Below, in pieces: positions 7,824-33,508 of a stretch of DNA of 64,000 nt. Position numbers and translations under genes: made by a program. Below the pieces are notes generated by a model. That model was not told where the DNA came from and searched no databases. It saw only the letters and a list, made by a program, of their open reading frames with translations. Origin of the DNA: a virus; IMG/VR virus record IMGVR_UViG_3300029319_000016, positions 24,051 through 88,050 of that record; one strand, 5' to 3'. Position 1 is the stretch's first letter; each line of letters starts with the position of its first letter.

Positions 7824-9230
7824 CTATAAATCTAATTTTAATTTAAAAGTATATTGACGATCTTCTGTTTTTCGAACAGGGTTGGCTAAAGAAGCAACTC
7901 CAATTAAGTTTCTTTTATCATCATAGATTGCAACTTTTGAAATGTACGTTTCTCTTTTAAACTCAGGTTCGTATTGTTTTAATTCTGTGTGTGCTGTATT
8001 GTGTATGGTTTGTTGGTGTTGTTTGAAAGAACCAGGCGAAATAGAATAGTTATTAACATCAGAGGAACTGCTTAAATAAGTTGGATTGTTAGACCAATTT
8101 AATTTTCCATAATCTGCATTACACATCATCATTAAAGTTTGTTTTTGTGTTATTCCTTGATACTTTATTTCAAAAGCAACATTTTTTATTGCTGGAAAGG
8201 CAACAACATTCTTATGGAGTCCAGCACCAAAATGCATCCATTTGTTGATTCCTCCACCTGAGCCTGGTAGTGAATAGGAATCGTCTACTCCAAGTTGATA
8301 AGAACCAGTAAGTATAAAAATTCCTTCATTATATAAAACAATACCAGCTGTTGATCCACTATAATCAACAGGAGAAGATGACGTTGAATAAGTTTGCACC
8401 AATTCTCCATTGCCTTTTATGTCTTTAAGGGTGGCTATAAGCGAACCAGTAACATAATAGTTTAACTCAACAGTTCTTTTCTTAATCTTTTGCCCATAAA
8501 AAATAGACGGCACAACTATAACATTTGTCTCGGCAGTGTAAAAATCTCTTTCTGGAATTGGTGCTTGAGATGAGAAAACCATGTGTGGTGATTTGTATCG
8601 ATACCTTTCCATAGCATTTTTTAACGAATAGGCAACTTCGTATGTTATTTCATCTGTTAGAGCTAAATCTTTTCTACCAACAGTGATCCTAGAAGGTCTA
8701 TCATTAGCAATATTGTATGGATAATGATAGCGAGTGATAGAAGCACTTAGATTATAATCACCTTCTACTATGTCTCCAAAATCAAATAACGTATTATATT
8801 GTGATTTTAAATTTACTTTTAAATTATTTCTAACACCATCTTTTACAACAAAAGGTCTTATCATCGAGCCTGTAGGATCTGTTTCTGATATTCTTGTAGA
8901 ATTTATTTGAGGATGAGCATGTGGATCGTTGAGAGTGTCAGAATGTGAAGACGATGTCTCGTTAATACCGTATATAACAGAACCAGATGGTCTGTTAATA
9001 TTATATTCATACAAACTTATCCAACCAGTATTACCTCTTTGTGGGTGGTATGTATGGTAAATAGGCCAGTTACCCACCTCTCCTTGTTGGTATATACCAT
9101 GAGCAGAACCAGATAGATTAGGTCGTTGATCAATGAAAACAGTTCCACTTGTTATTAAAAAGTTGAACTCAGGATAAGATTCCAAAGTGTTTATAAAAAC
9201 ATTTTCATCTTCTAATTTAAAAATAGCCAT
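7824..9230 (-). CDS. Putative tail/baseplate structural protein (tail-collar-like C-terminus)
   Basis: C-terminus YISKVAIYDDKRNLIGVASLANPVRKT is paralogous to 9256..10356. Late motif upstream; lies in the tail block. Confidence 0.6.
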   Translation of the reverse strand: MAIFKLEDENVFINTLESYPEFNFLITSGTVFIDQRPNLSGSAHGIYQQGEVGNWPIYHTYHPQRGNTGWISLYEYNINRPSGSVIYGINETSSSHSDTLNDPHAHPQINSTRISETDPTGSMIRPFVVKDGVRNNLKVNLKSQYNTLFDFGDIVEGDYNLSASITRYHYPYNIANDRPSRITVGRKDLALTDEITYEVAYSLKNAMERYRYKSPHMVFSSQAPIPERDFYTAETNVIVVPSIFYGQKIKKRTVELNYYVTGSLIATLKDIKGNGELVQTYSTSSSPVDYSGSTAGIVLYNEGIFILTGSYQLGVDDSYSLPGSGGGINKWMHFGAGLHKNVVAFPAIKNVAFEIKYQGITQKQTLMMMCNADYGKLNWSNNPTYLSSSSDVNNYSISPGSFKQHQQTIHNTAHTELKQYEPEFKRETYISKVAIYDDKRNLIGVASLANPVRKTEDRQYTFKLKLDL

Positions 9231-9245
9231 CTTAATACCTCTAGA

Positions 9246-9255
9246 ATAAATAGTA
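9246..9255 (-). promoter_or_regulatory. Putative late promoter
   Basis: TACTATTTAT in a 25-bp intergenic gap before a GAGG RBS. Confidence 0.6.
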
Positions 9256-10356
9256 TTAGTAGTCTAATCTAACTCTCAAGGTAAATTCTTGTGATGGGGT
9301 TTTTTTCAAAGGTTCTGACAATTTTGCAACAGCCATCAACTCATTCGCAGCTGAATAAAGTCCTATTGTTGTTATGTAAGAAATAGGATCTTCTGAGGCT
9401 TTTGTTTTAATTCTTATCTTTGAGTTATTTAAATAAGTTGGATTTGCTGAATAATTAAATTCATCATGGTTAACACGACAAAAGTAAATAGAAGAGTTGA
9501 GTTCTGTTGTGTTATTGAATGAAAGATTGTACAATCTTGTTCTAAAGTTATCAACAGCTCCTGTGATTAGGGAACCTGTTAAAACAGCGTCTACATCTTC
9601 TGCTGTGCTTGAAGGCCCTTTCATTAAAACATGTCCAAAGCCATTATTGAGTAATCCACCCAAGGCAGCATCTCTAAAAATAGAAGCTGTGAGAACAGCT
9701 ATTCCTGCTTGGTAATATAGCAATCCAGCTGGGTATCTTCTATTGGCTTTTAGAATGTTGTTATGTGTAGAAGCGGTTACATACAAGACACCATACTCTC
9801 CGGCTGGGGAATTGACAAAATATCCATCAGATCCACTAAAGTCTGTAATTAAAATTCTATTTGCAAATACGGTACCGTCTTCTGCATAAGCAGGCTTAAC
9901 ACCAAGTTCTAAATTAAAAGAACCTTTCTTTATTTCATCTTTCACTAGTAACCTAGACAAAGGCATAATAAAAACGTCTTTAAGTTTACTACCACCAGCA
10001 AGTATGTTTCCATCTTCGTCAAAATCTAATACAGATCCTGTGACATCATATCCAACAAGAACTTGTGCCATTTGTCCGTAAATGTTTTTCTTCTTTTTAT
10101 ATTGTGTATAAGTTGTGTTATATAATCCAGATGAAGCAGCAATACCAACAGTTAAATCAAAAATGTGGTTTGCTGAAGAAGATAGGTATGGATAGTCGTA
10201 AACAGTTTCAAACATACCATGAGAATGAAACTTGACGTTATTATCTGAATAAGTACCAGATACTATAGTCCCTGTTAAAGGAATTGCTTCGTGTAAAAGC
10301 GTTCGTGTCGACACTATGTCGTTACCACCTAAATTTTTATATGAGCCATTTGCCAT
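9256..10356 (-). CDS. Putative tail/baseplate structural protein (tail-collar-like C-terminus)
   Basis: FNYSANPTY...YITTIGLYSAANELMAVAKLSEPLKK resembles the C-half of tail-collar fibre (P2 gpH N-domain-like) motifs. Confidence 0.6.
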   Translation of the reverse strand: MANGSYKNLGGNDIVSTRTLLHEAIPLTGTIVSGTYSDNNVKFHSHGMFETVYDYPYLSSSANHIFDLTVGIAASSGLYNTTYTQYKKKKNIYGQMAQVLVGYDVTGSVLDFDEDGNILAGGSKLKDVFIMPLSRLLVKDEIKKGSFNLELGVKPAYAEDGTVFANRILITDFSGSDGYFVNSPAGEYGVLYVTASTHNNILKANRRYPAGLLYYQAGIAVLTASIFRDAALGGLLNNGFGHVLMKGPSSTAEDVDAVLTGSLITGAVDNFRTRLYNLSFNNTTELNSSIYFCRVNHDEFNYSANPTYLNNSKIRIKTKASEDPISYITTIGLYSAANELMAVAKLSEPLKKTPSQEFTLRVRLDY

Positions 10357-10372
10357 TTTTTATCTCTCTTTT

Positions 10373-11329
10373 TTATGATTTATATTTAACAAAACGAACA
10401 GGCAAGTCTACTGTATAACCTGTTGTTATTCCTGTAACCCTTACAATACTATCAATGTGATATACCTCAGATGAACCATTACCCCTATTGTCTAGTCTTG
10501 AAGTGCTTCCAAGTTCTGTAAATAAGTAGTTACTGGTATTTAAATCCAAAGATGCTCTAATTTTAAACTCTAAAATAGTTCCTCTAGGTCCGGCAATTAC
10601 TTGACCAGATCCACTAGAACTAGCTGCATCAGTAGTATTAGAGTTGAGACTAAACATTGTGCTTTGTACATCAGTAATAGTATAGAAAGCAATGTCGTCA
10701 TCATCAACATAGTCAAAGGAAATGGCTGATCCGTTTTTATCAGCAATAGATCCAAATCTGTTGTCAATTTGTATTGTATAACCGCTTTCAAACATGTCTT
10801 CAGGCAATCTAGTCGCATAACTTAGAGCAGTAGTATCTAAGCCCTGATCAAGTCTTATCATTCCACCATCAGATAATGATGCTCCAAAAAGAATACCATT
10901 AACTAAATTACCATTGGTAAAACCAATACCTACTTGTGTAGCATCTAAAGAATTATCATCTTCTGTTATTCTATCAACAGCAACAATAAAAGAGCCACTA
11001 GAGTGCATCTTTGTTGAATTGGAGCTTTCGTTTAACTTAATAACAGGTAGGTACAATAACCCCAAGTCATCATATGTCACTAGCTTAGATTTCATAGAAA
11101 TAGCATTGTCTGTGAAGGCTTCTAAAATTGGTGTTTGTAAAATCTCCAAATCATAATAAGCAGATCCATTTGCATTTGAGCTATCATATAAAGAGTAGTC
11201 TATTTCTTCATCTCCAAGTGCGAATTTTACTATCCTAAAAGTTCCATCACCTCTAGATAAAACTTTTCTGCCGTGGTCAGTTAAAACAGCGTCTAAGATT
11301 ATATCACCCGAATTATCTAAAAAACCCAT
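10373..11329 (-). CDS. Putative tail/baseplate structural protein
   Basis: N-terminus VLTDHGRKVLSRG...IVKFALGD is similar to the N-terminus of 16543..17649 and to the tail-collar fibre N-half. Confidence 0.6.
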   Translation of the reverse strand: MGFLDNSGDIILDAVLTDHGRKVLSRGDGTFRIVKFALGDEEIDYSLYDSSNANGSAYYDLEILQTPILEAFTDNAISMKSKLVTYDDLGLLYLPVIKLNESSNSTKMHSSGSFIVAVDRITEDDNSLDATQVGIGFTNGNLVNGILFGASLSDGGMIRLDQGLDTTALSYATRLPEDMFESGYTIQIDNRFGSIADKNGSAISFDYVDDDDIAFYTITDVQSTMFSLNSNTTDAASSSGSGQVIAGPRGTILEFKIRASLDLNTSNYLFTELGSTSRLDNRGNGSSEVYHIDSIVRVTGITTGYTVDLPVRFVKYKS

Positions 11330-11350
11330 TTTTTATCTCCTAATTTGTAA

Positions 11351-11367: not shown

Positions 11368-13461
11368 TTAATTTTTCTTTAAAAGAAATCTTACATTTAA
11401 ATCTAATTTCCTGCCTGTATCGTTAGATACAATTCTTATTTTAAATTTTTCACCTGTTTCTTTTATGGTTCCGTTCTCATTGATAACTGTCCAAATTTTA
11501 TTTCCAACAGTATCTAGACCAAGAGTCGGTAATTCTTGATTTAAATAAGGAAACAATCCAGCAACATCAGAAACATCTCCAGTAAAAAGAGGTTGTGACA
11601 AATTTGGATTTTTATATTCCTCGGGTGTGTCATCAAAAAATATTACCTCGTCTTGATTGTATTCATCCTTATAGAAGCCAGTTGTGACATAAACACCATT
11701 ATCATCTTTAAAACCAACAGTTGAGTACATTTTATCTTCAATAATCACGGTGATAGGTTCTTTTGTGTTAATTGTTGTTTCTAGCAAATTACTTGAATCG
11801 AAAGTAGTTTGATTACTTGAAGGTATTATTTGTAACATTCTCATCATTGATTTGAAAGGTTTATATTTATCTTTAGCCAAGTTTGCAAAATTAACAATCT
11901 TCATGTTTAAAAAAACTTCATCAGCATCTTCAAACAACTCTACCTCATAAATGTCTGTTGGGTTGGATGGGTACTCATAAAAATTAATCGCCCTAAAGAC
12001 ATAGTAATATTTTTTAAAAGGAATTAGCTCATCTATATGAACCAATTGAGTTCCAACAAATGAAGTTTTAACAACAGGAGAAACATTGATATCTTGATAG
12101 TTTCCTTGAGGTTGTGAAGACATTTTATAAATTTCAAATTTTCCTTTTTGACTTTCATAAACAAAAGAAGGTTTGCTTTTCATAATGTCAAAACTGTTTT
12201 TTCTACTTAGCCACTCATCTTTTGTTTCATTATTAGTAGAACCATCTGCATTCATTTGAACAAAATCTTGAAATCCATTGTAATAGTACTTTCCATTTTC
12301 TGAATTTTTGTTTAAATTTAATAAAATTTTTATTTTATATTTGTTTAAATCATCCTTATAGGTTTCAAAACTAACATCTGGAACTGGTAAACTAGGTTGT
12401 GTAATTTTTAGCGTTTGTATAAAGATAGGCTCAGTGCTCTTAGAAATAAAAACTGAAAAGTTTTTACTAATGATTCTCCAACTGTAAATTTTATAAGTAT
12501 ATTGTTTTTCTACTTTTACTTGTGTATCATAAAAAGACCAGCTTGATGCCTCATCTGTTAAAAAAGAAGTATAAAATGTTTGTATTACATTATCATTCTG
12601 ATCGCATTTTAAAATTTCAAAAAACAAATCTTCGTCTTTTTCTGTATTGAATAGTGGGCTATTATTAGCATCAGCAATTATTGTATAAAGATCGTCTCCA
12701 TCCCATAAGTCATCACCATTCACACCTTCAGGTCTATCTTGTATTGATAAAGGACAACAAGAGTTTATGGGATTATCATAAGCATCATCAAAAGTTTCAT
12801 AAAACAAATCATCACTTGTTATTCTATTAAATGCAATGCTTTCTGATTCTACACCACTTGGCAAACCATCGAATTTTTGGTTAATTTTATCGTATTTTTC
12901 AATAATACTTTTTACAAAAAAAGGAAACACACCCCTATTCTCAGGTCTTCCAAAATTATTTATTAGTTTTTTTAAATAACCTTGACTAAGAGGTTTAACA
13001 GTACTATTGAGTGTTATTTTAACTGCTTGAGGGTGATAACCAGAAATTTCATCTGTTCCTTTCCCACCCCTAAAATACTTTTCTTGGGACATAACCGAAT
13101 CATCAAAGTAAAAAATTGATTGCATTCTTGATTGTCCATCTTCGGGTCGACTCACATAAGAGTTGTTTATAAAACTTGGTCTTTTTGATTTATCATCAGA
13201 CTCTGGTGCGAACTCTTGTGTAAAGTTTTCAATTGTATCTGGAAACGCCTCTGCGCTTGATTCTGTGGAATCAGGATCTTCTCGTGATGCTCTGTCATAT
13301 TCAACATAACCATTGACCATGTTTAATTCATTTCTTTGATTATATTCATCAGCTATGTAGTTAAAAAATGGATTTATTGAAACTGTGTATTTATATTCAT
13401 CTGAGCCCTCAGTTCCCACTAGAACTGCTTTATCCCAAATGTTATGAAGTTTGGTTGACAT
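11368..13461 (-). CDS. Hypothetical structural protein (possible Fn3-like segments)
   Basis: 697 aa. FYDTQVKVEKQYTYKI and KKYYYVFRAINFYEYPSNP resemble Fn3 strand motifs. Translationally coupled to the upstream gene (TAATG). Confidence 0.55.
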   Translation of the reverse strand: MSTKLHNIWDKAVLVGTEGSDEYKYTVSINPFFNYIADEYNQRNELNMVNGYVEYDRASREDPDSTESSAEAFPDTIENFTQEFAPESDDKSKRPSFINNSYVSRPEDGQSRMQSIFYFDDSVMSQEKYFRGGKGTDEISGYHPQAVKITLNSTVKPLSQGYLKKLINNFGRPENRGVFPFFVKSIIEKYDKINQKFDGLPSGVESESIAFNRITSDDLFYETFDDAYDNPINSCCPLSIQDRPEGVNGDDLWDGDDLYTIIADANNSPLFNTEKDEDLFFEILKCDQNDNVIQTFYTSFLTDEASSWSFYDTQVKVEKQYTYKIYSWRIISKNFSVFISKSTEPIFIQTLKITQPSLPVPDVSFETYKDDLNKYKIKILLNLNKNSENGKYYYNGFQDFVQMNADGSTNNETKDEWLSRKNSFDIMKSKPSFVYESQKGKFEIYKMSSQPQGNYQDINVSPVVKTSFVGTQLVHIDELIPFKKYYYVFRAINFYEYPSNPTDIYEVELFEDADEVFLNMKIVNFANLAKDKYKPFKSMMRMLQIIPSSNQTTFDSSNLLETTINTKEPITVIIEDKMYSTVGFKDDNGVYVTTGFYKDEYNQDEVIFFDDTPEEYKNPNLSQPLFTGDVSDVAGLFPYLNQELPTLGLDTVGNKIWTVINENGTIKETGEKFKIRIVSNDTGRKLDLNVRFLLKKN

Positions 13462-16400
13462 TAATATCCTCCCCCTCTGCTAGGCCCTCGACCTCTTGAA
13501 GGACCTCTTGAGGGTCCTCTTCTAGGTCCTTGACCTCTTGAAGGTCCTCTTCTACCCCTGTTTCTAGAGGATCTTTCTCTATTATCAGAAGGTCTATTTG
13601 TACTTCTAGCATTACTAGGAGGTGGTCTTGATGGTGGTGGAACAGATGTTGTAGTAGCTTGTTCAATCTCATTATCTTGTTTCTTGTTTTGTATTTTTGA
13701 AAAGAATGTTGATTTAATGCTGCTAACTTTTTTTGGTTTTAGTTTAGAAATATAAGCATTTTTATCTTTAATTGATTTTGGTGGCTTTGTTTTATTTAAC
13801 ATAACTTCTAAATTATTTTCAATTCTTCTATTTCTTCTATTTCTAGGATTCTTTCGTCTTCTTCTGTTTATTCTTCTGGCTCGCTTTTTTGCTACAGATG
13901 ATCTACGACTCGTTGGTCTTTTTGATAATGCTTTTAAAACCATAGGTTGTCTATAACTATTTTCTACAAAAAACAAATTTTTAGCAAATTCGTATTCATA
14001 AAAATCTTGTATGTTATAGAGACGATAAAAAGAATTAAATGCTTGCATGTTCATAGGATTCGAATCAACTCTGTTACTAGAAGTTCGGTTATAATTATTA
14101 GGATAAATTACAAAATAAGAGTTGACAACGCCATAATCTTCAAATTGATTAGATGGCGAGTTGAAACTTGGATCATAATGTTCAAACATTCTACACACTA
14201 TAGGGCTAGTTAGTTCTGCTAAAACATCAGTTGTTAAATCTTGATATTGTACATTACCAATGCCTTGCTCTGTGTCTATTGTATAATATTTTACTCGTTG
14301 TAAATTAAAAAACATTGCATCTTTAGTATATTGTTTTTCATAAAAAAACTCTTGGAGTTCTCCAACAATAGGCAATGCAACATCAGGGTTTAATAGAAAA
14401 ACATGTTGAATTGGTAACTCACTAAACTCTGATTCTGTTTTACTTTGTAAAACTGCACTGTTTCTATTTAGAATAGAAAATCTGTTGGAACCTCTAGATG
14501 CCACTAGTGCTTTTCTCATTGCCTTGGCGATAGGTACTGGTCTACTATCTTTATCTAAAGCTTTTTCTTCAGGTTCATCAAATATGTTTGTGTTCTCACC
14601 TAGCAAGTTATCTTCAAAATTATATTCTTCCCTAAATCTTTCAGCCCTAATGTTTTCTCCAAATAACGCACTAAGTTCACTTTCTCCTAGCAAAAGAGAA
14701 TCAGCAAATTTTCCTAGAGCTTCTTCGTTAATTTGTGATAAATTTTTTAAAATAAACTTGTCTCTTCCTTTTGTTATTTCGCTTGGGCTTAATGTTGCAT
14801 GTTCTACAAACCTAGTATCATCATTCGTGTTTAAAAAGTTTTCATTAGAAAATCTTCTTTTTTCATTTTCTAAAATTCTAACAAACTGTGAAACGTTAAA
14901 AAAATTAGTATACATTTCGGCGCGATTGTTACTTTTTAAATAATTTTTAAATTTTTTATTAATTTTTAAATTAACTCTATATCTTTTTCTAGATGATGGA
15001 AAACTAATTCTTGTTCTGTTTGTGTTTCTTCCATAAGAATAACTTCCTCTACCTGTAGAAAGACCATACATTCTTGACATTTTTTTAATTATTTTCATAC
15101 ATAAAAACAATAAACCGTTTAAAGATTCAAACGTACAAGTCTTGGGAGATCCCATCGCACTAAGGTTTCTTATTATTTCAACCTCATTGGCTGAGTCTTT
15201 TCCACAAACTACATGAATTCCTTCTATTAAAGTTTTAATACAAGTTGACCATGGTGCTATTTTTGTTCGCTTGTCAAAACTAGATACTATTTTATCTCTA
15301 TTATAGGTTCTTGTAGTTCTATCAAAATACTGATCGCTTAAAATAATAGAACTTATTTTTTTTAAATAAGCGGCGGTTTGAGCTTTCATTCTAGTAACCA
15401 AATCATTTAAATATCTTTTTATGGGGTTATCTGTTTGCACTCTAATTTCCAAATCTCTCATTCTTCTATTTTCAAAAACACAATCAGCAGAATAAATAAA
15501 TCTTTCGTTTGACATTTTTATGTTTTTAATTTTTGCAAATGCTGTTCTGTTGAAGTTAATTTTGTCTCCACTAGACCTAGTATAAATTATTGGTCTTCCG
15601 TTTGAAAAGACTTCTAATTTTTTTATTTGTACATCTTGGAATTTATCTAAAATTTCAGGATATATGGAATTTAGTATCAAAGCTTCTTTAGAATTTTGAA
15701 TTAAAATTTCTCTAGCATTTATTGAAAAAATAGCTCCTATTTTTCCATTTTCTAATTGAGTTGTTTCTAAAGGTGAAAAGATCTTTCTATTATCTTTTGG
15801 AATTTGTTTTATTTGTTTTTGATTAAAGAGAAACTTAAACCTATAATCTTTTGTTTTTAAGTTGTAAACATTGGTAGTATCTAAAGCACCATGGCTAATG
15901 TTATTAAAATGAAAAGAATTTTCCATGTAACCTCTACGATGCTGATGGACAGCACTTGGCCAAACTTCCTTAGTGTTTTTTTTCAAAAACAATGATGTGT
16001 TTAGAGGTATTTCATTATCTTTAAAGACCATTTCAACTATTGTTGGTCCAAATTTTTCTTTTGTATTAGATTGTTTTTTAGAAAGACAAGCAAATACAGC
16101 TAAGTGACCTTTTGTTGAAATTTTTTCAATTTTAATAAATTTATTAATTTTTTGCAAAGTGTTTAATTTCAAATATTTACCATGGTCTTCATCATTCAAT
16201 GTTATTTCTATAAACTGATTATTGGAGTTTTGTAGTAATCTTTGTAGTCTAGGTTTGGTAAAAATTATATTATTTTGTCTCAAATTCTCAGTTGTTGCAT
16301 GGTCAGTTGAAACAAAAATTTTTATTTGATTAACAGAATTTTTGTTATTAAAATAAGGTCTTCCTGAAAAATTTAAAGAATTAAAGATAGAAAAATTTAT

Positions 16401-16529: not shown

Positions 16530-16542
16530 TTTTTAGTCCTTA

Positions 16543-27000: not shown

Positions 27001-30000
27001 ACCAAAATAATTTCCAAAATCAGAGGTATTTGATCCTATAAGAGTTAAAGGATGGGTTGTCACCGGTAACGTTGTAGAAATATCTGTTGGTAAAAAGTTA
27101 CCGCTTATCTGATAATTTGCATCTGAAGCGGCTTTTTTCAATCTATTGTTATTCTCTAGTCTACCAACTGTATTGAAATATTCATACTTCTCTTTGTAGT
27201 TACCTTGAACTCTTTCTGAACCACTTATGTTTTGTATGTTATATGGGCGCTTAGCTCTAAATCCTCTATAATAGATTGCCCATTGTCTTGAAGGATCAGG
27301 ATAGGGTCCACCATAGTCAGGACCAACAAGACCTAAAGCACCATCTTTTACTGATTCGTCAGGGTGCTCACCAAACAAAATTCTATAAGCTTCAGGTCTA
27401 GAATATTGGTCATCTAAATTATTTAAAGTCGCTGCTCCACCTTCTGTTTTCAAATTAGTGTCATGTCTATTAACTGGTACGTGTCTAGACTGATGTCCAC
27501 CAACCCAAGTTTCAGCAAAGGGTCCTTGCAATGGAATGTCATTTTGCAAATAAGTTGTGTCTGAATGCAAGTTGGTTAAGACAACGGAAGCTGAGTAGTT
27601 ATCAAAAACTTTCTTGTTGGCTCCTCTCGGTTCAGAACCAGAGATTAAATTAAACGGAGCTGCGTAGTGGCCCTTAACTTTGTAAATGTAATCCAAAGAA
27701 GCTGTGGATGGAGCATTACCATCATTTGAAGAGTCTTTACCAACTGTTATAACAAAATTATACTCATCAACTTGATTAGGATCTAAGACATCGTTTGAGA
27801 TGTTTGTGTTAACTATGCCCTGTCCTGGACCAACACCAACAACAGCGACATTGACTGGTACGCCTAAATTTGTTTTAGACCCATGAGGTCTAAGAACATC
27901 ATAAACAAAATCTCTATTTTTATTTTGATTGTAGTTTATACCTGAATGTATTGTACTTTGTACATCAAAAGACAGTTTATAAGGTCTAGAAAATCTTCTT
28001 AAAGTGTAAGTAGGTTTAAGATAAATTCCACCATCATTGTTTAGTAGATATTTGTTGTAAGTTACGGTTTCAGTGGTAACGACTTCTTGAACTGTTTGGA
28101 TTTCACTAGCCAAAGGACCAAGTCTCTCCGACCTTTCTTTTTGCCATAAAGAGTGATCGTTTTCTGATCCGTTTTTATATTCCGGAGAGTGACCAACTTT
28201 CCAGTTGTAAGTTAAGGGACCAATGCTTTGAATTGTACCAACAGTGGCTTGAACCTTATTAACAGTAGGAAATTTTCTATCATACTTTGGTCTTTCAAAA
28301 ATGTGACTCTCAACAACATTAGAGACATTTTTTGTAAAAGTTACTGATGCTGGTTTCAGTTGTTCAATAAAGAAAGACAAAGACGAGTCTATCCACTTAA
28401 AGTAATCTGTGTATCTGTCTAAATCTGGATTGCCTGTAACTCTTTCAAAAAATAAACCTCGAGCAGTTCTTAATTTTTTGTATTCCATTCTATAATAGTC
28501 AACAGGTTTGGCAAACAGATTAGCTAACTCTTTCATCGAAGAAAAGGTTCTTAACATTTCATCTGAAATTGATTGGTACATACTTTTTTCTAGAGCAAAG
28601 ATGTTGTCTGTTGTGTCCTCATCTTCTAGAAAATATTCCATCTCATTATCAAAGATAGAAATCCTATCGTTTGTAAAGGAAATTTCGGGTAGTTCTTTTC
28701 TTCTAGAGTAAATAAAATCTAGCTTTACAGGATTTGTGTCATTGCTTGGAAAACCCAAGGCTCTACCTAGATTCTCTCTTTCTATTATGTTTGAAACCCA
28801 TCCATATTTATTACCAACAACTTTAACTGTTTTTCTACCACCTGTTAAACCAGAAAAAACAATAGTATCGCTTGGTAAAGAACCAGGTGTAATTGCAATA
28901 TTTCCCTGTGAGCCTTTTTTAATATGAATTAAATCTATAAAATTTTTATTAGGTGGATTTCTTTGTAAAACTTTTATTGTATTTGTACCATTAGTTCCAT
29001 GCCCATTAGAGCTTTCTATAGCAATGGCGATTTGTGAAGCAATTAGAACAGCTTGAGTTATACCATTAATTTGTACAACTACACCATCAGAGGTGACTGT
29101 CCCGCTTGCTCCTTTTGTTCCAGTATTATCAAAAAAGTATTCTATTGCATTCCCATCTGAATCAGTTATTGTAAACCCATCGGTAGTTGGGAGACTAGCG
29201 TGTTTTGCTAATCCACCACCAACATCTACTACTTCTATTATACCTGTTGCTTTTGAAATTATTTCCACTCCCGCAGAACCACTTGAAAAGTCTTGAACTG
29301 TAAACTCTCCCAGAGAGTTAGCTGATGAATTTTTATCAAAATTCCAATGTAGTATTAGTGAATCGTAGCCTGGAATCTCAACGCTACTAGAAATACCATA
29401 ATTGAAGTTTGTTGTATTTGAATAAATTTTATCATGACCATAATTAAATGCGTCCAAATTGTGTGCTTTAATTGATTCGTTATTAAGCTCATCCATCCAA
29501 ACTCTTAAAGAATCAACAATCACATCTGTTTCATCAATAACTGAACCTGTGTTGTTTTGTGCGTGTGCACCAAGATAAAAACGCTTTGAATTGCATAAAA
29601 TTGCTGAGCCTGTTGTAAAGTTTGCACTAGCTGTTATTTCAAACTCGTGCTTTACATTTCCAAATGCATGTGTGACACCATAAAGTCTAGCAGTATATTT
29701 TGGTTGTGAACTTTGTAATACTCCAATAGTCGGATAACCTTGAGGTTTAATAGACATTTGAAGGTTCCATCTTTCATCATTATATACATCTTCATAAAGA
29801 CCAGTCTCAGCGTAAATACTATTGTCATAATTTTTTATAACAAACTTTACATTTGGTGATTCTACATGATCTTTTACAGCAAAAACTTGCAAGTTTGCAA
29901 CATCGTTTGAATGCCAAGAGTAATCAGAAGAATCATCAGAATTGGCTTGGTGAAAACCAAATAAGGAAGCTGATACGGATTGCAATGTATAAAAACCAGA

Positions 30001-32088
30001 TTTCCCAAATTCTAATTTTCTAGGAAAAATGAAACCACCTTCCATAGAGAAAGCAGAAAATCTTTCATTTTTTATTGTCTCGCCTGAACCGGAAATAAAT
30101 GTAAAAGAATTGGCACTTGAAGAAGTTTGGATTACTCTTCCATAAGTTCTATTTTTTTTGTTAAAGTTCAAAACTTTTGTTTTTACTGATGAGTCTTTGT
30201 ATCTATCTTTTAGATAATGAGTACCATAGTCAGTATAAACATTTAATTTTATTAGTTCGTCATCAACCCCATAACATCTTAAAAGGTTTCTAAAAGACTT
30301 TTCCGTTCCTTTTGTTTTGTAAATGTATTCTAAATTATTATAAATGTTATTATAAATTAATCTCTTTGTTTTTTCTATGTTTTGTTCAAAATGTTCACCA
30401 GTTTTAGATCTATCCCAAAAATATTCTAAAACATCTCCCTCTATAAACGAATTGGGTGTTATCAAACCTTGGTCATTTAACAAGCGATCAACAAAAAAGT
30501 AAGGTTCAGCAGAAGCTGTGTAATAATTTTTGTCCTTTAATTTTGGTAGCTCTCCTATTTGCACATAAAGAGTATCAAGATAGGATGAAAGTATTTGATG
30601 CAAATATTTTATGTTACTATTTTGCTCATCTTCTTCTCTCAACCATGATGGCACTGCATTATATAAGTTAGAACTATTGCTTTTATCATAAATAGAACCA
30701 CTTCTAGCCATTTCGGTGACCAAGGACTTTACAGATGGATGATCAGACCTAATGATTGGGTCACCAGGCTCTTTCTGTGTAAATGCTGTGCCTGTCGATC
30801 TAGAATAAGTATCATAACCAACCCATCTACCATTCGATACTCTTCCTGAGTAATCTAAAACTACTGAATCGTAGGAAGAAGATCCGACGATACCTTCGTT
30901 AAATTTATAATATACACCTAGGTCTGTTCTGAAATCATCAGAATTTGATCCACCACCCACTGGATAATACCAAGTGTTGTAGATATATTCATCTGTTAAG
31001 TCTTTTTTCCAATACCTAAAATCATCTAAAGAAGCAGAAAGTTTTCCAGCTCCAAGCATGTTAGCAGCCGCATAAGTACTACCAGACGGACTTGTAGATA
31101 AAGCGCCGATGTAGCCGTCTATTTTTCCTGGTATCTCCTCTATGTTGGTTGCTGTGTCAAAAACAGAAGCACTGTTCAACAATCCATTTTGGAAATATCT
31201 AACAAAAAGTTTTTGTTGTTTGGATTTAATCGTAACTGTATGGTGTGTCCAAGTATTGTTTGCTAGTGAAGCAGCATTATAGGTAGACAAGCAAATTGGT
31301 TGATTAACTATACCTTTTGATCCAGATTGTAGGGTTAAGTACATGACTGAATTTGGTGTTGAATTACTTAATCCACCAGATAGTTCTAAGGTTAATCTTC
31401 CATAATTATGGACTATAGCAGTAGAATCAACACCTGCTGGAACCGTATTGCCATTCCACAGATCTAGAATTACTTCTTTGTCTGTTTCAGTGGTACCGAA
31501 AGATTGTTTTTTCATCCAAAACTGTATTGTGATACCATTTAAAGGATTTATTCTATAATTTATAGTTCTATTTTTATTTGGATCATAAACAGTACCTTTA
31601 TCAAAAGCTTTTGATAAGGCAAGTGTGCCAATTCCTTGAGAAGATGTGTGTTGTTCTACAGAAGCTGTGTGTAGTCCACCAGCTGTATAAATGTATTCTT
31701 TGGATGAAGGAATACCATATTGGCCGACTGTAGTGCCAGATCCCCATCCATTAGCTGAAAATAAAGCATAACCTGTTGATTTTGGATATTTGTTATCCAA
31801 TAACCATTGATCTAAGTAGGTTGAGTTGTTTTTAAATTGTAGTTTCTCAGCTTCGGAACCATCGTATGGGTAAGAAGAATAGATTCTTTCTATAGAAGAT
31901 CTATAATATTCCTCAGCTGAACCGAAGTGGACAAACGATTCTGGGTCGGAAAAATCTAAATTTGGATAAAAAGTTTTGTTTCTTTTTACAACTTCTTTTA
32001 CCAACTCAGGTGATTCTACACTTTTGGTTAATTCTGTTACTGAGTTTTGTAATACATTTTTTTTATTAAAATAATCTCTAATAGACAT
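24079..32088 (-). CDS. Giant multi-LamG structural (baseplate wedge/fibre-like) protein
   Basis: 2669 aa with at least three LamG-like repeats (ITIQFWMKK/LDDFRYW; FSISWWMK/WVHYVAVF; FSYWVNF/WYHIAFFY/IYING). YIYKTKGTEKSFRNLLRCYG resembles baseplate-wedge KGT motifs. Confidence 0.75.
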   Translation of the reverse strand: MSIRDYFNKKNVLQNSVTELTKSVESPELVKEVVKRNKTFYPNLDFSDPESFVHFGSAEEYYRSSIERIYSSYPYDGSEAEKLQFKNNSTYLDQWLLDNKYPKSTGYALFSANGWGSGTTVGQYGIPSSKEYIYTAGGLHTASVEQHTSSQGIGTLALSKAFDKGTVYDPNKNRTINYRINPLNGITIQFWMKKQSFGTTETDKEVILDLWNGNTVPAGVDSTAIVHNYGRLTLELSGGLSNSTPNSVMYLTLQSGSKGIVNQPICLSTYNAASLANNTWTHHTVTIKSKQQKLFVRYFQNGLLNSASVFDTATNIEEIPGKIDGYIGALSTSPSGSTYAAANMLGAGKLSASLDDFRYWKKDLTDEYIYNTWYYPVGGGSNSDDFRTDLGVYYKFNEGIVGSSSYDSVVLDYSGRVSNGRWVGYDTYSRSTGTAFTQKEPGDPIIRSDHPSVKSLVTEMARSGSIYDKSNSSNLYNAVPSWLREEDEQNSNIKYLHQILSSYLDTLYVQIGELPKLKDKNYYTASAEPYFFVDRLLNDQGLITPNSFIEGDVLEYFWDRSKTGEHFEQNIEKTKRLIYNNIYNNLEYIYKTKGTEKSFRNLLRCYGVDDELIKLNVYTDYGTHYLKDRYKDSSVKTKVLNFNKKNRTYGRVIQTSSSANSFTFISGSGETIKNERFSAFSMEGGFIFPRKLEFGKSGFYTLQSVSASLFGFHQANSDDSSDYSWHSNDVANLQVFAVKDHVESPNVKFVIKNYDNSIYAETGLYEDVYNDERWNLQMSIKPQGYPTIGVLQSSQPKYTARLYGVTHAFGNVKHEFEITASANFTTGSAILCNSKRFYLGAHAQNNTGSVIDETDVIVDSLRVWMDELNNESIKAHNLDAFNYGHDKIYSNTTNFNYGISSSVEIPGYDSLILHWNFDKNSSANSLGEFTVQDFSSGSAGVEIISKATGIIEVVDVGGGLAKHASLPTTDGFTITDSDGNAIEYFFDNTGTKGASGTVTSDGVVVQINGITQAVLIASQIAIAIESSNGHGTNGTNTIKVLQRNPPNKNFIDLIHIKKGSQGNIAITPGSLPSDTIVFSGLTGGRKTVKVVGNKYGWVSNIIERENLGRALGFPSNDTNPVKLDFIYSRRKELPEISFTNDRISIFDNEMEYFLEDEDTTDNIFALEKSMYQSISDEMLRTFSSMKELANLFAKPVDYYRMEYKKLRTARGLFFERVTGNPDLDRYTDYFKWIDSSLSFFIEQLKPASVTFTKNVSNVVESHIFERPKYDRKFPTVNKVQATVGTIQSIGPLTYNWKVGHSPEYKNGSENDHSLWQKERSERLGPLASEIQTVQEVVTTETVTYNKYLLNNDGGIYLKPTYTLRRFSRPYKLSFDVQSTIHSGINYNQNKNRDFVYDVLRPHGSKTNLGVPVNVAVVGVGPGQGIVNTNISNDVLDPNQVDEYNFVITVGKDSSNDGNAPSTASLDYIYKVKGHYAAPFNLISGSEPRGANKKVFDNYSASVVLTNLHSDTTYLQNDIPLQGPFAETWVGGHQSRHVPVNRHDTNLKTEGGAATLNNLDDQYSRPEAYRILFGEHPDESVKDGALGLVGPDYGGPYPDPSRQWAIYYRGFRAKRPYNIQNISGSERVQGNYKEKYEYFNTVGRLENNNRLKKAASDANYQISGNFLPTDISTTLPVTTHPLTLIGSNTSDFGNYFGSGITSRAMPKRISYPRFTIATASSLTDNHYLNLTLSVGNVFGQVVHPLADQVGGYQKTLWLDTDGNPKTQDFNKLFNLYTYRKTFRSPNTFTADATGSLSGLNTDNFSISWWMKTPVNELSNTAHIGFKDDGDTWRHQIFLDNDIQIYFENSANAKDETIFDTNNGSVSGSQWVHYVAVFEVDDLSSATKVPRLYQNGHPVTSSGTTYSPVGGTTPQINEFIIRNDDKITLQDIVIWKTLLTGSGEIAELYNNGNWKDPSTHSKASTILSWWKYGDESYWDTYHYGYEVSGGLHNHHNNRDKFLSSSFGTHNNTLRIPYDQDHRFYFTKGLGYLTNTEIWDQAQRKLEHQFKDFEFPYVSGSERAIFTIKPRKDYHSTTARISISASNHVNPSFTVLSNTTAIEGPLNLVQRESDFLTGSQRNKTVIASRFSAPGGPEVQSYGYLDAYAREYSVHNSLNYRNLSIRGSGSGESGTIRANSQINTRDGLRALYQRPMGRSGTDGVYGLPDQSDYAYSASFHKIPRNTLVRPIATTDNDTFQRKVFRFHPTDPAETYSAIQVSTYNDYWGNIDAVRKTTKARNEGWVGFSYWVNFDKLQSYTTSTHEIYPFYFGVNNSMVTTGLYIQRTTYPKVGYSMGIQVNRRDIDVMNINLKNFLGANDPDAIPQGDAPIQFNKWYHIAFFYRKELNAEPIIYINGVSSKDVVKPYTWRYDSSTENGKFTDNGGYTGGGSYPNISYATWGGNLSGISDADADTTESEFSGMIADTLIWWDLPEPSTIEYLYKNPNADVLSINESYKIQAYFTLGENIYKEPNPLNPGTFVSNFDSPGNFYKTGSIQGYSFGAGKEVEYAKVWNVDADYANRARISARDSIYDITGSTQPQRLQLVTAELPRHQPGSIIGEKNNNYNYNSVLPASDYNYSWVTSSLGNNYSVRSGVQKMFGYWPKDGLNKINDKIESAITFPSSSEIYATYGE

Positions 32089-33508
32089 CGCTTCTCACTT
32101 TAAAGTTGAATTTATAAGATTGCTCGTTCCATGATCCAACCCCATCGTCATAAAATGCAAATTTTATGGTATACATTTGATCTGCTTCAAATAGCGACAT
32201 GTCTAGATCAAAGTAGTTACCAGAAACGTTATAAGATAACATAGTGTGGTTATCAGATCCGGTTCCAAAAGGTATTACTGGGAAATTATCAGATGCTCTG
32301 CATACTTCGTATGAAGCACTAGAAATAGTAGTTGTTTCTGGTGTATTTTTAGCTACTGTATAAATATTTGGTGACCAATTTCTAGGACGAGCATATAGTT
32401 TAAATCTAGCAGTTTCGTTTGTTCCATAATACTCTCTTAAATTAGAAATGTTGAGAACATAACGGTCTGATGGGTTGTAAATTCCAGTAGAAAAGGTGTT
32501 AACTGTTATCGAACCTGTTCGATATTCAACTCCTCCGGAGTGCCAAACGTCTACAAGCGATGTACTTGTTGTTGATGCGGTAACTTGACATTTATAAATT
32601 CCTGTTTTTACATGAGAACCAGTAAAATTGTGACCAACTTTTGAACCACCGGCAGAATCGTATAGAGTAACAAGAATAGGGTTTGTGCCAACAGCAGGTA
32701 TGTCTCTTAAGCGCCCTCTAATGCTATTGTACAGGTATAAAGTGTTATAGTTATCAGGACCAGGGGCAAGAGAAGAAGACGCGAAAAAATAGGCTCTATC
32801 GTCCTTTATTGAGTTGTCCCATCTAGCTTCCAAAACTGGTCTCTTTAATTTGAATTCTGAGCTTCTTGCGAAGAATTTTTTTGTATAATAAGATTTTTTC
32901 TCTGCTTCAAAAGCATCTGTTAATCTTATTCCAAAACCATAATTTTCTTTTGTACCAGCTAGCCACTCTTCTACTAAAGGTGTGACATCGACTTCCAGAT
33001 CTTCGTAACCCTCAACAAAGTTGTAATTAAACTTTGGACCAGAATGGTAAACACCACCAGTAACATTCCATTCACCCATAGAACCTCTACGAACCCAATT
33101 AGATCCAGTTAAGCCATAAGTTTTATCTGTATAGTTGACCATGTCTAAGCCATTTCCTTCTTCCCATGATTGAGACACAGCTGAAATGGTCATTGAGTAA
33201 TTTTCTGGTAATGTGGTTGCATGTCTGGCGTTGTATAACTTAAGATAAAACGAAACAGAACCAGATGCTGGTATAGTTCCAGCTGATCTTTGAGTAGAGA
33301 TCTCAGTAGTATTAAATTGTATGAGGACTCTGGCCAGTTCTGAAGACAGTCCTGCCGAAGATGAGTTTTGACCATATAGTTGAAAAACTTCAAGTATATC
33401 AGCCTCTCCCATGTTTGATCCTGTTGCTCTGTTGGAAGACAATAGAGATTGATCAAAAGCGTTGGAAATTGTATTATCTGCTGTTGCAAAGTATCTTTTT
33501 ATAGTCAT
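32078..33508 (-). CDS. DNRLRE-like domain structural protein
   Basis: ADNTIS...RVLIQFN...LKLYN...SQSWEEG...NYGFGI...RPVLEARW pattern. Confidence 0.6.
   Translation of the reverse strand: MTIKRYFATADNTISNAFDQSLLSSNRATGSNMGEADILEVFQLYGQNSSSAGLSSELARVLIQFNTTEISTQRSAGTIPASGSVSFYLKLYNARHATTLPENYSMTISAVSQSWEEGNGLDMVNYTDKTYGLTGSNWVRRGSMGEWNVTGGVYHSGPKFNYNFVEGYEDLEVDVTPLVEEWLAGTKENYGFGIRLTDAFEAEKKSYYTKKFFARSSEFKLKRPVLEARWDNSIKDDRAYFFASSSLAPGPDNYNTLYLYNSIRGRLRDIPAVGTNPILVTLYDSAGGSKVGHNFTGSHVKTGIYKCQVTASTTSTSLVDVWHSGGVEYRTGSITVNTFSTGIYNPSDRYVLNISNLREYYGTNETARFKLYARPRNWSPNIYTVAKNTPETTTISSASYEVCRASDNFPVIPFGTGSDNHTMLSYNVSGNYFDLDMSLFEADQMYTIKFAFYDDGVGSWNEQSYKFNFKVRSDVY

What the first reader, a model, noticed from the sequence alone, without database searches (positions are those of the whole stretch)
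7824..33508. [S/T]-[G/A]-S tripeptide strongly enriched in a subset of tail proteins: candidate glycosylation sequon
Seen, counted by eye: SGS/TGS/SAS/TAS occurs about 28 times in the 2669-aa LamG protein, about 11 in the 2142-aa protein, 8 in the 476-aa, 7 in the 468-aa and 5 in the 366-aa protein (e.g. ISGSE twice, VSGSE, LTGSQ, LSASL, ITASA). It occurs only about 3 times in the 2859-aa protein and about once each in the gp6-like and SbcCD proteins. The motifs are dispersed, usually follow a hydrophobic residue, and are not DNA repeats, so they look selected at the protein level. Established: some phages (e.g. mycobacteriophage Che8) O-glycosylate virion proteins with their own glycosyltransferases. 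Inference: this tripeptide is the acceptor sequon for the neighbouring glycosylation operon and marks surface-exposed tail proteins for a glycan coat.
Basis: partly seen in the sequence, partly recalled or inferred. Interest (0 to 1): 0.88.

Follow-up and report, generated by a model that had tools for sequence, protein, structure and literature searches.

The report
Serine tag on phage tail proteins
The outer baseplate and fibre proteins of this uncultured marine T4-like phage carry the short motif Ser/Thr-Gly/Ala-Ser about four times too often, and relatives that lack the phage's sugar-making genes lack the motif, so it is probably where the phage attaches its own sugars, though no sugar has been seen.

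Summary
[ST][GA]S occurs 60 times in five tail proteins, against 15 expected from local shuffles. TGS is the most over-represented tripeptide with real counts. Codons vary. [ST][GA]T is not enriched.

The excess is confined to the same proteins in relatives:
- 26 loci: 848 vs 209 downstream of the gp6-like gene, but 78 vs 103 upstream.
- It recurs in Flavobacterium phage immuto, Microcystis phage Mel-JY01 and Rhodothermus phage RM378.
- It is absent from T4, 121Q, S-CAM3, PA5oct and TJE1.

The decisive result is a natural experiment. Two groups of relatives lack the sugar-gene island next to a conserved GT4 pair. They also lack the excess from all orthologous proteins (4 vs 7.4 and 17 vs 13.5). 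At the best-conserved sites the motif is replaced, often by charged residues. The fold therefore does not need it.

The motif tracks the variable sugar island, not the GT4 pair, which the motif-poor relatives keep.

I read it as a sequon-like tag for phage-encoded O-glycosylation (confidence 0.6). No chemistry shows this.

This scan has noted the same motif repeatedly on related phage DNA. I found no paper describing it.

The parts
32078..33508 (-). 476-aa motif-rich protein directly after the gp6-like gene. It is built of tandem beta-sandwich (Ig/FN3/CBM-like) domains.
   Evidence: 8 sites vs 1.5 expected. 120 homologues average 8.14 vs 1.75. AlphaFold model pLDDT 79.9. Foldseek gives Ig/FN3/CBM-like hits only.
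24079..32088 (-). 2669-aa giant motif-rich protein with a LamG-like domain at residues 1796-1914.
   Evidence: 28 sites vs 5.9. Pfam Laminin_G_3 E=3.9e-14. The orthologue in G001 has 60 vs 13.3.
17649..24077 (-). 2142-aa motif-rich protein with a LamG-like domain at residues 50-211.
   Evidence: 12 sites vs 5.0, p=0.002. Pfam Laminin_G_3 E=3.7e-11.
11368..17649 (-). Three fast-evolving tail-block proteins (368, 1022 and 697 aa) that lack the motif, here and in relatives.
   Evidence: 1, 0 and 0 sites. Orthologues in G001 and G002 have 1/0/0 and 0/0/0, at only 24-52% identity.
10373..11329 (-). 318-aa tail-block protein with no significant excess.
   Evidence: 2 sites vs 1.1, p=0.30.
9256..10356 (-). 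366-aa motif-rich protein. Its C-terminal domain is shared with the 468-aa protein and with proteins of immuto, Mel-JY01 and RM378.
   Evidence: 5 sites vs 0.8. BLAST similarities.
7824..9230 (-). 468-aa motif-rich protein, the last gene of the tail block.
   Evidence: 7 sites vs 0.8. 120 homologues average 6.57 vs 0.94. AlphaFold model pLDDT 68. No fold match.
33508..35776 (-). gp6-like (601 aa) and gp25-like (139 aa) baseplate wedge proteins. They are motif-free and mark the start of the tagged block.
   Evidence: phrog_6 E=5.4e-24. phrog_261 E=1e-13. 1 and 0 sites.
35791..44370 (-). 2859-aa giant protein upstream of gp25. No family found and no motif excess.
   Evidence: 3 sites vs 2.8. No significant Pfam or PHROG family. 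Upstream ORFs of 26 relatives total 78 vs 103.
48494..57609 (-). Variable sugar island of 12 ORFs: NDP-sugar epimerase/dehydratase, GT2-like, nucleotidyltransferase, HAD phosphatase, a short DegT/PseC-like aminotransferase, GNAT, GT-D-like, a GT2-like 536-aa protein and unassigned ORFs. All are predicted soluble.
   Evidence: Pfam. NCBIfam. No TM-like segment in any of the 14 proteins counting the GT4 pair. The block is missing or shrunken in motif-poor relatives.
57606..60085 (-). Conserved pair of adjacent GT4-type glycosyltransferases (414 and 411 aa).
   Evidence: Glycos_transf_1 at 51.9 bits (cut-off 26.4) and 24.8 bits. The pair is found in 2 of 3, 17 of 21, 3 of 5 and 15 of 15 relatives' contigs, and in immuto, Mel-JY01 and RM378.
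47047..47751 (-). Late sigma factor-like gene between the sugar island and the tail block.
   Evidence: phrog_234 E=3e-4, a weak hit.

Best explanation
The motif hydrophobic-[Ser/Thr]-[Gly/Ala]-Ser-hydrophobic is a short linear tag placed in exposed loops and strand ends of the peripheral baseplate and fibre proteins. Its maintenance depends on the phage's own sugar-gene island.

The most likely mechanism runs as follows. The island's soluble enzymes make an activated, probably N-acetylated amino-deoxy sugar in the infected cell's cytoplasm. Soluble phage glycosyltransferases transfer it, or a short glycan, onto a hydroxyl of the tag, most likely the invariant third-position Ser. Assembly then gives the outer tail a glycan coat.

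Shown here:
- the enrichment and its residue specificity;
- its restriction to a fixed set of virion proteins;
- its presence across four deep phage lineages;
- its joint absence, with the island, from two groups of relatives.

Inferred:
- that the tag is modified at all;
- that the modification is a sugar;
- which residue is the acceptor;
- which enzyme reads the tag. The GT4 pair alone is not sufficient to keep the motif.
For: 1. The signal is specific. 60 vs 15.3 +/- 3.8 under local shuffles. TGS is the top tripeptide. The third-position Thr variant is not enriched, here or in 26 relatives, where [ST][GA]T is 1.06-1.31x against [ST][GA]S at 4.1-5.0x.

2. The same proteins are tagged and untagged in relatives. 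In 26 loci: upstream ORFs 78 vs 103, p476 homologues 234 vs 47, downstream ORFs 848 vs 209. The protein-by-protein pattern repeats in G001 and G002. In the complete 191-kb relative G006 only 4 of 185 ORFs pass Bonferroni, all in the two tail/fibre blocks. The other 181 total 89 vs 76.7.

3. Unbiased replication in distant cultured phages. In Mel-JY01, SGS and TGS rank 1 and 2 of 1927 tripeptides (54 vs 9.5). In immuto, SGS, TGS, SAS and TAS rank 2, 5, 7 and 9 of 1704 (97 vs 24). An RM378 gene cluster has 30 vs 6.4. The hydrophobic flanks at -1 and +3 recur in all three. Only 10 of the window's 62 sites, and 0 of 39 in RM378, lie in stretches with BLAST similarity to the other lineages.

4. Negative controls show no excess: T4 11 vs 13.7, 121Q 5 vs 5.3, S-CAM3 16 vs 14.7, PA5oct 11 vs 7.8.

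5. Natural experiment.
- Of 144 related loci with at least 1000 aa downstream, 125 have a ratio >= 2 and 19 have < 2.
- The 12 distinct motif-poor sequences form two groups on a tree of 120, with 2 Fitch changes.
- All 9 motif-poor contigs tested have 0 epimerase/dehydratase genes. Their GT4-pair-to-p476 distance is 12.1-15.4 kb, against 19.8-37.8 kb in 27 motif-rich contigs (my arithmetic).
- In G025 the whole 12-gene block is missing.
- 8 of 9 motif-rich contigs have epimerases in the island. The ninth, G039, has NeuB plus a cytidylyltransferase instead.
- In two island-less relatives all orthologues of the tagged proteins lack the excess together: G025 4 vs 7.4, G030 17 vs 13.5.

6. The fold does not need the tag. 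At the 10 columns where at least 30% of motif-rich p476 homologues carry it, the 12 motif-poor sequences keep it in 8 of 108 cells. Replacements include TDA, EDE, KAV, KMY and IGT. Charged replacements fit exposed positions.

7. 13 of 15 sites in two models have their first two residues in coil (background 0.46, p=0.0013).

8. Motif sites are kept more often than average tripeptides: 27 of 46 (0.59) vs 0.39 against G001, and 13 of 34 (0.38) vs 0.20 against G002.

9. The pathway is all-soluble. Thymidylate-synthase-type enzymes, which supply the hydroxyl for known DNA glycosylation (abstract of PMC13326640), are over the cut-off in 0 of 5 near-complete relatives.
Against: - No modification of any kind has been observed.
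- No enzyme here belongs to a family known to read such a tag. The GT4s score far below every NCBIfam cut-off.
- The GT4 pair persists in all 9 motif-poor contigs.
- The island-loss correlation rests on only about two independent events. All motif-poor contigs are fragments (13-80% complete), so sugar genes could lie elsewhere in those genomes.
- The excess sits at about 14-18 recurrent alignment columns per family. Sporadic sites occur at chance rate, 0.92x and 0.69x.
- At several sites the alternatives keep the Gly but leave the motif class (TGS/TGG, TGS/TGT, [IVFL]GS), as ordinary turn positions would.
- Solvent exposure was not computed from coordinates. Four of the 15 mapped sites lie in low-confidence loops.
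- RM378 is motif-rich, yet ribonucleotide reductase, not sugar genes, follows its GT4 pair. Its motif-rich cluster is unannotated.
- LR756508 has a GT4 homologue but only about a 2x excess (8 vs 4.0 by my sum).
- TJE1, with a 22%-identical single GT4 and sugar-nucleotide genes, shows none.
Confidence: 0.6

Rival explanations
1. The motif is a purely structural element, for example a Thr/Ser-Gly turn followed by a Ser that starts the next strand. It would be favoured by the particular beta-rich folds of this clade's outer tail proteins, and nothing is attached to it.
For: - Sites sit at strand boundaries. Four of 15 show the pattern coil-coil-strand, and one is a tight hairpin at pLDDT above 90.
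- Flanks are hydrophobic.
- The excess is confined to recurrent columns.
- Gly is often kept when the flanks change (middle G/A kept in 49 of 108 cells).
- Motif-free tail proteins may simply have other folds. This was not tested.
Against: - Orthologous proteins of island-less relatives do without it even at the column where 104 of 108 others have TGS.
- The excess is lost from all tagged, largely unrelated proteins together.
- Thr, the better strand former, is not accepted at position 3.
- Ala replaces Gly in 21 of 60 sites, which a positive-phi turn would not tolerate. That last point rests on general knowledge, not on a test here.
- The beta-rich tail proteins of T4, 121Q, S-CAM3 and PA5oct show no such preference.
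Confidence: 0.15
2. The tag is read by something other than a glycosyltransferase. It could take another island-dependent modification (sulfation, methylation, phosphorylation, acylation). It could also be a contact site for a glycan or a partner protein made only when the island is present.
For: - The islands also hold non-GT enzymes: a GNAT here, a sulfotransferase-like protein in G027, and methyltransferases, a PhyH-like dioxygenase and a glutamine-synthetase-like protein in G039.
Against: - The one feature common to the islands inspected is sugar activation and transfer. This window has a dehydratase, aminotransferase, nucleotidyltransferase and GT2/GT-D-like proteins. G039 has NeuB and a cytidylyltransferase. 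8 of 9 other motif-rich contigs have epimerases.
- G027 keeps a sulfotransferase-like gene and is motif-poor.
Confidence: 0.15
3. The association between island and motif is a lineage accident. Two sub-clades happen to differ in both characters for unrelated reasons, such as a shift in composition or in host. The motif excess would then be an inherited quirk of an ancestral protein set.
For: - Only about two independent changes support the correlation.
- Motif-poor proteins have somewhat less Ser.
- All positive lineages may be one deep clade. The best gp6 and GT4 hits are the same phages.
Against: - Ratios are corrected for each protein's composition.
- Most sites lie in sequence with no detectable similarity between lineages.
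- Motif sites are conserved above background.
- The split is bimodal and complete in every contig tested: 9 of 9 poor without epimerase, 9 of 9 rich with a sugar island.
Confidence: 0.1

Closest known systems
Virion O-glycosylation of mycobacteriophages by phage-encoded glycosyltransferases (Che8; Freeman et al. 2023, Cell Host Microbe). The paper is not held. I saw only a one-sentence description and the reference in PMC13445384.
   Same: A phage encodes its own glycosyltransferases and, on this reading, uses them on its own virion proteins in the host cytoplasm.
   Different: - Those are siphoviruses of Actinobacteria, with the capsid protein as the target according to the passage I saw.
- No tripeptide address is known to me (recalled, not checked).
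- The enzymes were not compared with those here.
- The one actinophage I tested, TJE1, which has a distant GT4, has no [ST][GA]S excess.
GT4 enzymes that O-glycosylate Ser in adhesins of Gram-positive bacteria: GtfA/GtfB on serine-rich repeats and SdgA/SdgB on Ser-Asp repeats. The family names come from NCBIfam; their biology is recalled.
   Same: Soluble cytoplasmic GT4-type enzymes, in one case an adjacent pair, that act on Ser next to small residues.
   Different: - Their substrates are long low-complexity repeats. The sites here are dispersed in folded beta-rich proteins with hydrophobic flanks.
- Similarity is only generic: 17.6-20.4 bits against cut-offs of 574-800.
- The GT4 pair here does not track the motif.
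Virus-encoded glycosylation machinery of giant viruses (chloroviruses, Mimivirus). The review PMC9614988 was seen in a search listing only.
   Same: The virus carries both nucleotide-sugar synthesis genes and soluble glycosyltransferases and decorates its own structural proteins. The PBCV-1 glycosyltransferase B736L (PDB 3oy2) is among the best solved matches of the 414-aa GT4, E=7.9e-8.
   Different: Those are eukaryotic viruses with different target proteins. Their atypical sequons are recalled, not checked. No homology beyond the generic GT4 fold is shown.
Flagellin O-glycosylation with pseudaminic or legionaminic acids (Campylobacter, Helicobacter, Aeromonas). The biology is recalled; PMC4975691 was searched for passages and gave nothing on sequons.
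   Same: - Cytoplasmic O-glycosylation of exposed Ser/Thr of a self-assembling extracellular structure.
- The island's aminotransferase is PseC/LegC-like, E about 6e-13 and far below cut-off.
- The relative G039 carries NeuB and a cytidylyltransferase.
   Different: - No Maf-type transferase was looked for.
- This window has no NeuB-family hit in the proteins scanned.
- Flagellin has no strict tripeptide address (recalled).

Membership tests
Phage virion glycosylation systems (Che8 type) | Phage-encoded glycosyltransferases present in the genome | tested here: met
   The 414-aa GT4 scores 51.9 bits against a cut-off of 26.4. GT2-like and GT-D-like proteins fall below their cut-offs.
Phage virion glycosylation systems (Che8 type) | Glycan covalently attached to virion proteins | not testable with these tools
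   This needs mass spectrometry or glycan staining of virions. Cultured relatives exist: immuto, Mel-JY01 and RM378.
Phage virion glycosylation systems (Che8 type) | Homology of the transferases to the Che8 enzymes | not tested
   No Che8 sequences were fetched. No mycobacteriophage was among the 20 phage records matching the 414-aa GT4.
GtfA/GtfB (accessory Sec) and SdgA/SdgB adhesin glycosyltransferases | Score over the curated family cut-off | tested here: not met
   GtfA 17.6 bits vs 574.6. SdgA 20.4 vs 800. SdgB 17.6 vs 800.
GtfA/GtfB (accessory Sec) and SdgA/SdgB adhesin glycosyltransferases | Substrate is a long serine-rich or Ser-Asp repeat region | tested here: not met
   The sites are dispersed and non-periodic, with 45 distinct 9-mers of 60.
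Glycosyltransferase family 4 (Pfam Glycos_transf_1) | Pfam gathering score reached | tested here: met
   The 414-aa protein scores 51.9 bits against 26.4. The 411-aa partner scores 24.8, just under the cut-off, but keeps an E-x7-E-like stretch. Naming that stretch an EX7E motif is recalled.
T4-type baseplate (gp6/gp25 wedge) | gp6-like and gp25-like proteins adjacent, followed by peripheral baseplate and fibre genes | tested here: met
   phrog_6 E=5.4e-24. phrog_261 E=1e-13. Pfam Gp6-like_1st scores only 18.3 bits against 27.
DNA base glycosylation (T4/RB69 type) | Thymidylate-synthase homologue or TET-type enzyme that supplies the hydroxyl on the base | tested here: not met
   PF00303 is over the cut-off in 0 of 5 relatives that are at least 91% complete. 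PF12851 is found in 0 of 5, but that search's control rang nowhere, so it is uninformative. The window's own contig is a fragment and was not searched for these.
Lipid-linked surface polysaccharide pathways (Wzx/Wzy or ABC type) | Membrane-embedded initiating transferase, flippase or polymerase | tested here: not met
   None of the 14 proteins between 48494 and 60085 has a 19-residue window with Kyte-Doolittle mean >= 1.6. This is a crude test.

The most novel reading that the evidence does not exclude
A widespread group of aquatic T4-like phages carries a sequon-directed virion glycosylation system with two separable parts. The first is a constant five-residue address (hydrophobic-[ST]-[GA]-S-hydrophobic) written into exposed loops of the outer baseplate and fibre proteins. 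The second is an exchangeable sugar cassette: dehydratase/aminotransferase/acetyltransferase type in this window, NeuB/cytidylyltransferase type in G039. Different phages would then display different glycans on the same sites, a phage counterpart of serotype switching. Lineages that drop the cassette erase the address.
Probability: 0.4. Interest if true: 0.9.

Novelty: new variant of a known kind. Interest (0 to 1): 0.8.

Why it matters
If the tag is a glycosylation site, it would be the first defined acceptor motif for phage-encoded protein glycosylation.

It would also apply to a very abundant group of ocean phages. The 476-aa protein has more than 4200 homologues in metagenomes.

A glycan coat on the outer tail could affect host recognition, stickiness to marine particles, resistance to proteases and grazing, and recognition by host defences.

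The motif makes the idea directly testable:
- Candidate sites can be read from sequence.
- Cultured relatives exist.
- Nature supplies island-less controls.

It would also give a way to predict glycosylated virion proteins from metagenomes alone.

Tried and rejected
Explanations tested and set aside:
- DNA repeats or codon artefact: 45 distinct 9-mers of 60, with ordinary codon use.
- Local low-complexity composition: block shuffles.
- Post-hoc choice of motif: unbiased tripeptide scans here and in two cultured phages.
- A general property of beta-rich tail proteins: T4, 121Q, S-CAM3 and PA5oct show none.
- A few conserved homologous sites or repeated domains: most sites lie outside stretches similar between lineages. 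However, 32 of immuto's 97 sites do lie in internal paralogous repeats.
- The GT4 pair as the enzyme tied to the motif: the pair is present in all 9 motif-poor contigs tested.
- A graded link between island size and excess among motif-rich contigs: by eye, none. Only the rich/poor split is clear.
- DNA glycosylation as the island's purpose: weakened, not excluded.
- Lipid-linked polysaccharide synthesis: no TM segments.

Searches that gave nothing useful:
- PHROGs for the tagged proteins.
- PDB sequence searches for the 468-, 366- and 476-aa proteins and for the 411-aa GT4.
- Foldseek for the 468-aa model.
- PHROGs for RM378's motif-rich cluster and for G006's second block.
- PF00483, which hit 0 of 5 contigs, motif-rich ones included, so it is uninformative.

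Weak or negative comparisons:
- TJE1, with a distant single GT4, has no excess.
- LR756508 has only a weak excess.

Literature. Searches found no paper describing this motif or glycosylation of immuto, Mel-JY01 or RM378. That is my basis for saying it is not in print, within that library. Supplementary files were not consulted.

Not done:
- Solvent accessibility could not be computed, because model coordinates are not returned.

Full report
**What is in the region.** All genes of the window lie on the minus strand. The finding's coordinates cover the tail block that follows a gp25-like (35357-35776) and a gp6-like (33508-35313) baseplate wedge gene. The block encodes proteins of 476, 2669, 2142, 368, 1022, 697, 318, 366 and 468 aa. 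It ends before a RuvC-like resolvase and a primase. The two giants each carry one LamG-like domain. None of the others has a Pfam or PHROG family.

Upstream lies a 2859-aa protein without a family, then a late-sigma-like gene. Beyond that, from 48494 to 60085, are 14 abutting genes: NDP-sugar epimerase/dehydratase, nucleotidyltransferase, HAD phosphatase, a short PseC/LegC-like aminotransferase, GNAT, GT2-like, GT-D-like proteins and two adjacent GT4s. None has a membrane-like segment.

The window is the last 64 kb of an 88-kb virus contig. The nearest cultured phages share only about 31% identity in gp6: Microcystis phage Mel-JY01, Flavobacterium phage immuto and the uncultured LR756508.

| Protein | Observed | Expected |
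|---|---|---|
| 2669 aa | 28 | 5.9 |
| 2142 aa | 12 | 5.0 |
| 476 aa | 8 | 1.5 |
| 468 aa | 7 | 0.8 |
| 366 aa | 5 | 0.8 |
| 2859 aa | 3 | 2.8 |
| gp6-like | 1 | 1.0 |
| SbcC-like | 1 | 0.8 |

- Shuffling within blocks of 15-60 residues leaves 15.1-15.4 +/- 3.8-3.9 for the five proteins together (maximum 30 in 2000), against 60 observed.
- An unbiased scan of all tripeptides puts TGS first among those with real counts (22 vs 3.7), followed by SGS, TAS and SAS.
- Neighbours such as TGT, SAT, TGD, AGS and LGS are at or below expectation. The unit is the ordered tripeptide with Ser in third place.
- The sites use 45 different 9-mers.
- They prefer L/I/V just before and just after the motif.

**It is a property of a large phage family and of a fixed set of proteins.**
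- The 476-aa protein has more than 4200 metagenomic homologues. The best 120 average 8.1 sites against 1.75 expected.
- The best 120 homologues of the 468-aa protein average 6.6 against 0.94.
- In 26 related IMG/VR loci the genes upstream of the 476-aa homologue (gp6 and the giant before it) have 78 sites against 103 expected. The homologues themselves have 234 against 47. The genes downstream have 848 against 209, with every locus between 2.8x and 5.2x. The control [ST][GA]T stays at 1.06-1.31x.
- Two relatives with the whole tail block repeat the pattern gene by gene. This includes the three motif-free, fast-evolving proteins in the middle.
- In a complete 191-kb relative only 4 of 185 ORFs are significant after Bonferroni correction. 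All lie in the post-gp6 block or in a second block that matches ORFs upstream of the window on its own contig. The other 181 ORFs have 89 against 76.7.

**It recurs in distant lineages and is absent from other myoviruses.**
- Mel-JY01: in the run of proteins after gp6, SGS and TGS rank first and second of 1927 tripeptides (54 vs 9.5).
- Immuto: the four motif tripeptides rank 2, 5, 7 and 9 of 1704 (97 vs 24), while TGT is depleted (1 vs 5.2).
- Rhodothermus phage RM378: a cluster of unannotated genes at 64.8-78.5 kb has 30 against 6.4.
- The hydrophobic flanks recur in all three.
- Only 10 of the window's 62 sites, and none of 39 in RM378, lie in stretches with BLAST similarity to the other lineages.
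- Peripheral baseplate and fibre proteins of other myoviruses show no excess: T4 (11 vs 13.7), 121Q (5 vs 5.3), S-CAM3 (16 vs 14.7) and PA5oct (11 vs 7.8).
- The same holds for the virion module of the siphovirus TJE1, which has a distant single GT4 (11 vs 10.3).
- LR756508 is intermediate.

**Where the sites sit.** AlphaFold models of the 476-aa (pLDDT 79.9) and 468-aa (pLDDT 68.1) proteins are all-beta.
- Of 15 sites, 13 have their first two residues in coil (background 0.46, p=0.0013).
- Eleven lie within three residues of a strand.
- Four show coil-coil-strand, and one is the two-residue turn of a confident hairpin.
- Four lie in low-confidence loops.

Coordinates are not returned, so exposure was not computed.

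**How the sites evolve.** Motif sites are kept more often than average tripeptides: 27 of 46 against a 0.39 background at about 65% identity, and 13 of 34 against 0.20 at about 50%. Forty to sixty percent of sites still turn over. The excess is concentrated in about 14-18 alignment columns per family, each occupied in 10-99% of members. Once columns with the motif in more than 10% of sequences are removed, the rest is at chance, 0.92x and 0.69x. At some columns the alternatives keep the Gly but leave the class. Taken alone, these facts fit either a structural or a functional site.

**The natural experiment.** Notes from earlier agents of this scan claimed that relatives without the sugar island lack the motif. 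I tested this on my own data.
- A profile search with the 476-aa family returned 149 representatives with 1382 sites against 308 expected, plus a few with none.
- I fetched their IMG/VR loci. This gave 144 loci with at least 1000 aa downstream: 125 with a ratio >= 2 and 19 below 2.
- The 12 distinct motif-poor sequences form two groups on a tree of 120: a clade of nine (support 0.89) and a group of three, with two Fitch changes.
- All nine motif-poor contigs tested keep the GT4 pair. They have no epimerase/dehydratase gene.
- Their GT4 pair lies 12.1-15.4 kb from the 476-aa gene, against 19.8-37.8 kb in 27 motif-rich contigs, by my arithmetic.
- In G025 the pair is followed by two small ORFs and then the sigma-like gene. 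The 12-gene block is gone.
- In G027 only a GT4-GT2 fusion, a 194-aa ORF and a sulfotransferase-like gene remain.
- Of nine motif-rich contigs from the same searches, eight have epimerases inside the island. The ninth, a complete genome with terminal repeats, has NeuB, a cytidylyltransferase and sugar methyltransferases there instead.
- In two island-less relatives with the whole tail block, the orthologues of all tagged proteins lack the excess together: 4 vs 7.4 and 17 vs 13.5.
- At the ten columns where at least 30% of motif-rich 476-aa homologues carry the motif, the motif-poor ones keep it in 8 of 108 cells. They often put charged residues there. At the column where 104 of 108 others have TGS, they have IGT or [ML]TD.

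**Reading.** The proteins fold without the tag, and its positions accept charge. Its presence is tied to a cassette whose common denominator is sugar activation and transfer. That makes a sequon-like role for phage-encoded O-glycosylation the best explanation (0.6).

The conserved GT4 pair is not sufficient to keep the motif, so its role is open. The GT4s are only generically GT4: best NCBIfam hit BshA at 52 bits against a cut-off of 274, with GtfA and SdgA/B near 18-20 bits.

Competing uses of the island are weakened but not excluded. Known DNA glycosylation needs a thymidylate-synthase homologue (abstract of PMC13326640). None is over the cut-off in five near-complete relatives. Lipid-linked polysaccharide synthesis needs membrane proteins, and none is predicted.

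**Limits.**
- The correlation rests on about two evolutionary events.
- The motif-poor contigs are fragments.
- RM378 and LR756508 do not fit neatly.
- Nothing chemical has been observed.

**Novelty.** Phage virion glycosylation is known for mycobacteriophages; I saw that work only second-hand. I found no paper on this motif or on glycosylation in immuto, Mel-JY01 or RM378. This scan has reported the same motif many times on related DNA. I treat those notes as leads, not as evidence.

Noticed in passing
window 54223-54837 (-): The DegT/PseC-like aminotransferase is only 204 aa, where the profile has 360 positions. It matches in two separate stretches (profile 23-94 and about 191-264). It is either a much shortened enzyme or a remnant.
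   Followed up: no
window 35791-44370 (-): A 2859-aa protein just upstream of gp25/gp6 has no Pfam or PHROG family and no motif excess. Its homologues in relatives are only 28-35% identical, while gp6 is 57-76% identical.
   Followed up: partly
L226 (G039:C1:139500-152100): A complete relative carries a different sugar island: NeuB, a cytidylyltransferase, CmcI/TylF-like and FkbM-like methyltransferases, a PhyH-like dioxygenase and a glutamine-synthetase-like protein. An S-adenosylmethionine lyase family gene lies next to it.
   Followed up: partly
L224 (G027:C1:70200-79471), 5359-7290 (-) and 4131-4778 (-): In one motif-poor lineage the second GT4 is fused to a GT2 domain (643 aa). A sulfotransferase-like gene follows it.
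   Followed up: no
L100 14825-28503 (RM378 64.8-78.5 kb): RM378's strongest motif excess lies in a cluster of unannotated proteins. This cluster is far from the genes that resemble the window's 366/468-aa and 318-aa proteins, which lie at RM378 116.3-118.1 kb.
   Followed up: partly
L093 35287-38448 (immuto 'tail spike protein', 1053 aa): This protein has 53 motif sites against 12 expected. Immuto also has 32 motif sites that lie in about 500 aa similar only to other proteins of the same phage, which points to internal repeats rich in the motif.
   Followed up: no
window 61686-63023 (-): A single 445-aa protein joins a PIN domain to a PhoH-like ATPase.
   Followed up: no
contig G000:C1:2855-10566, upstream of the window: Four Ser/Thr/Gly-rich ORFs (165, 453, 372 and 1540 aa) carry a weaker, roughly 2x motif excess. 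They match a second tagged block at 151-159 kb of the complete relative G006.
   Followed up: partly
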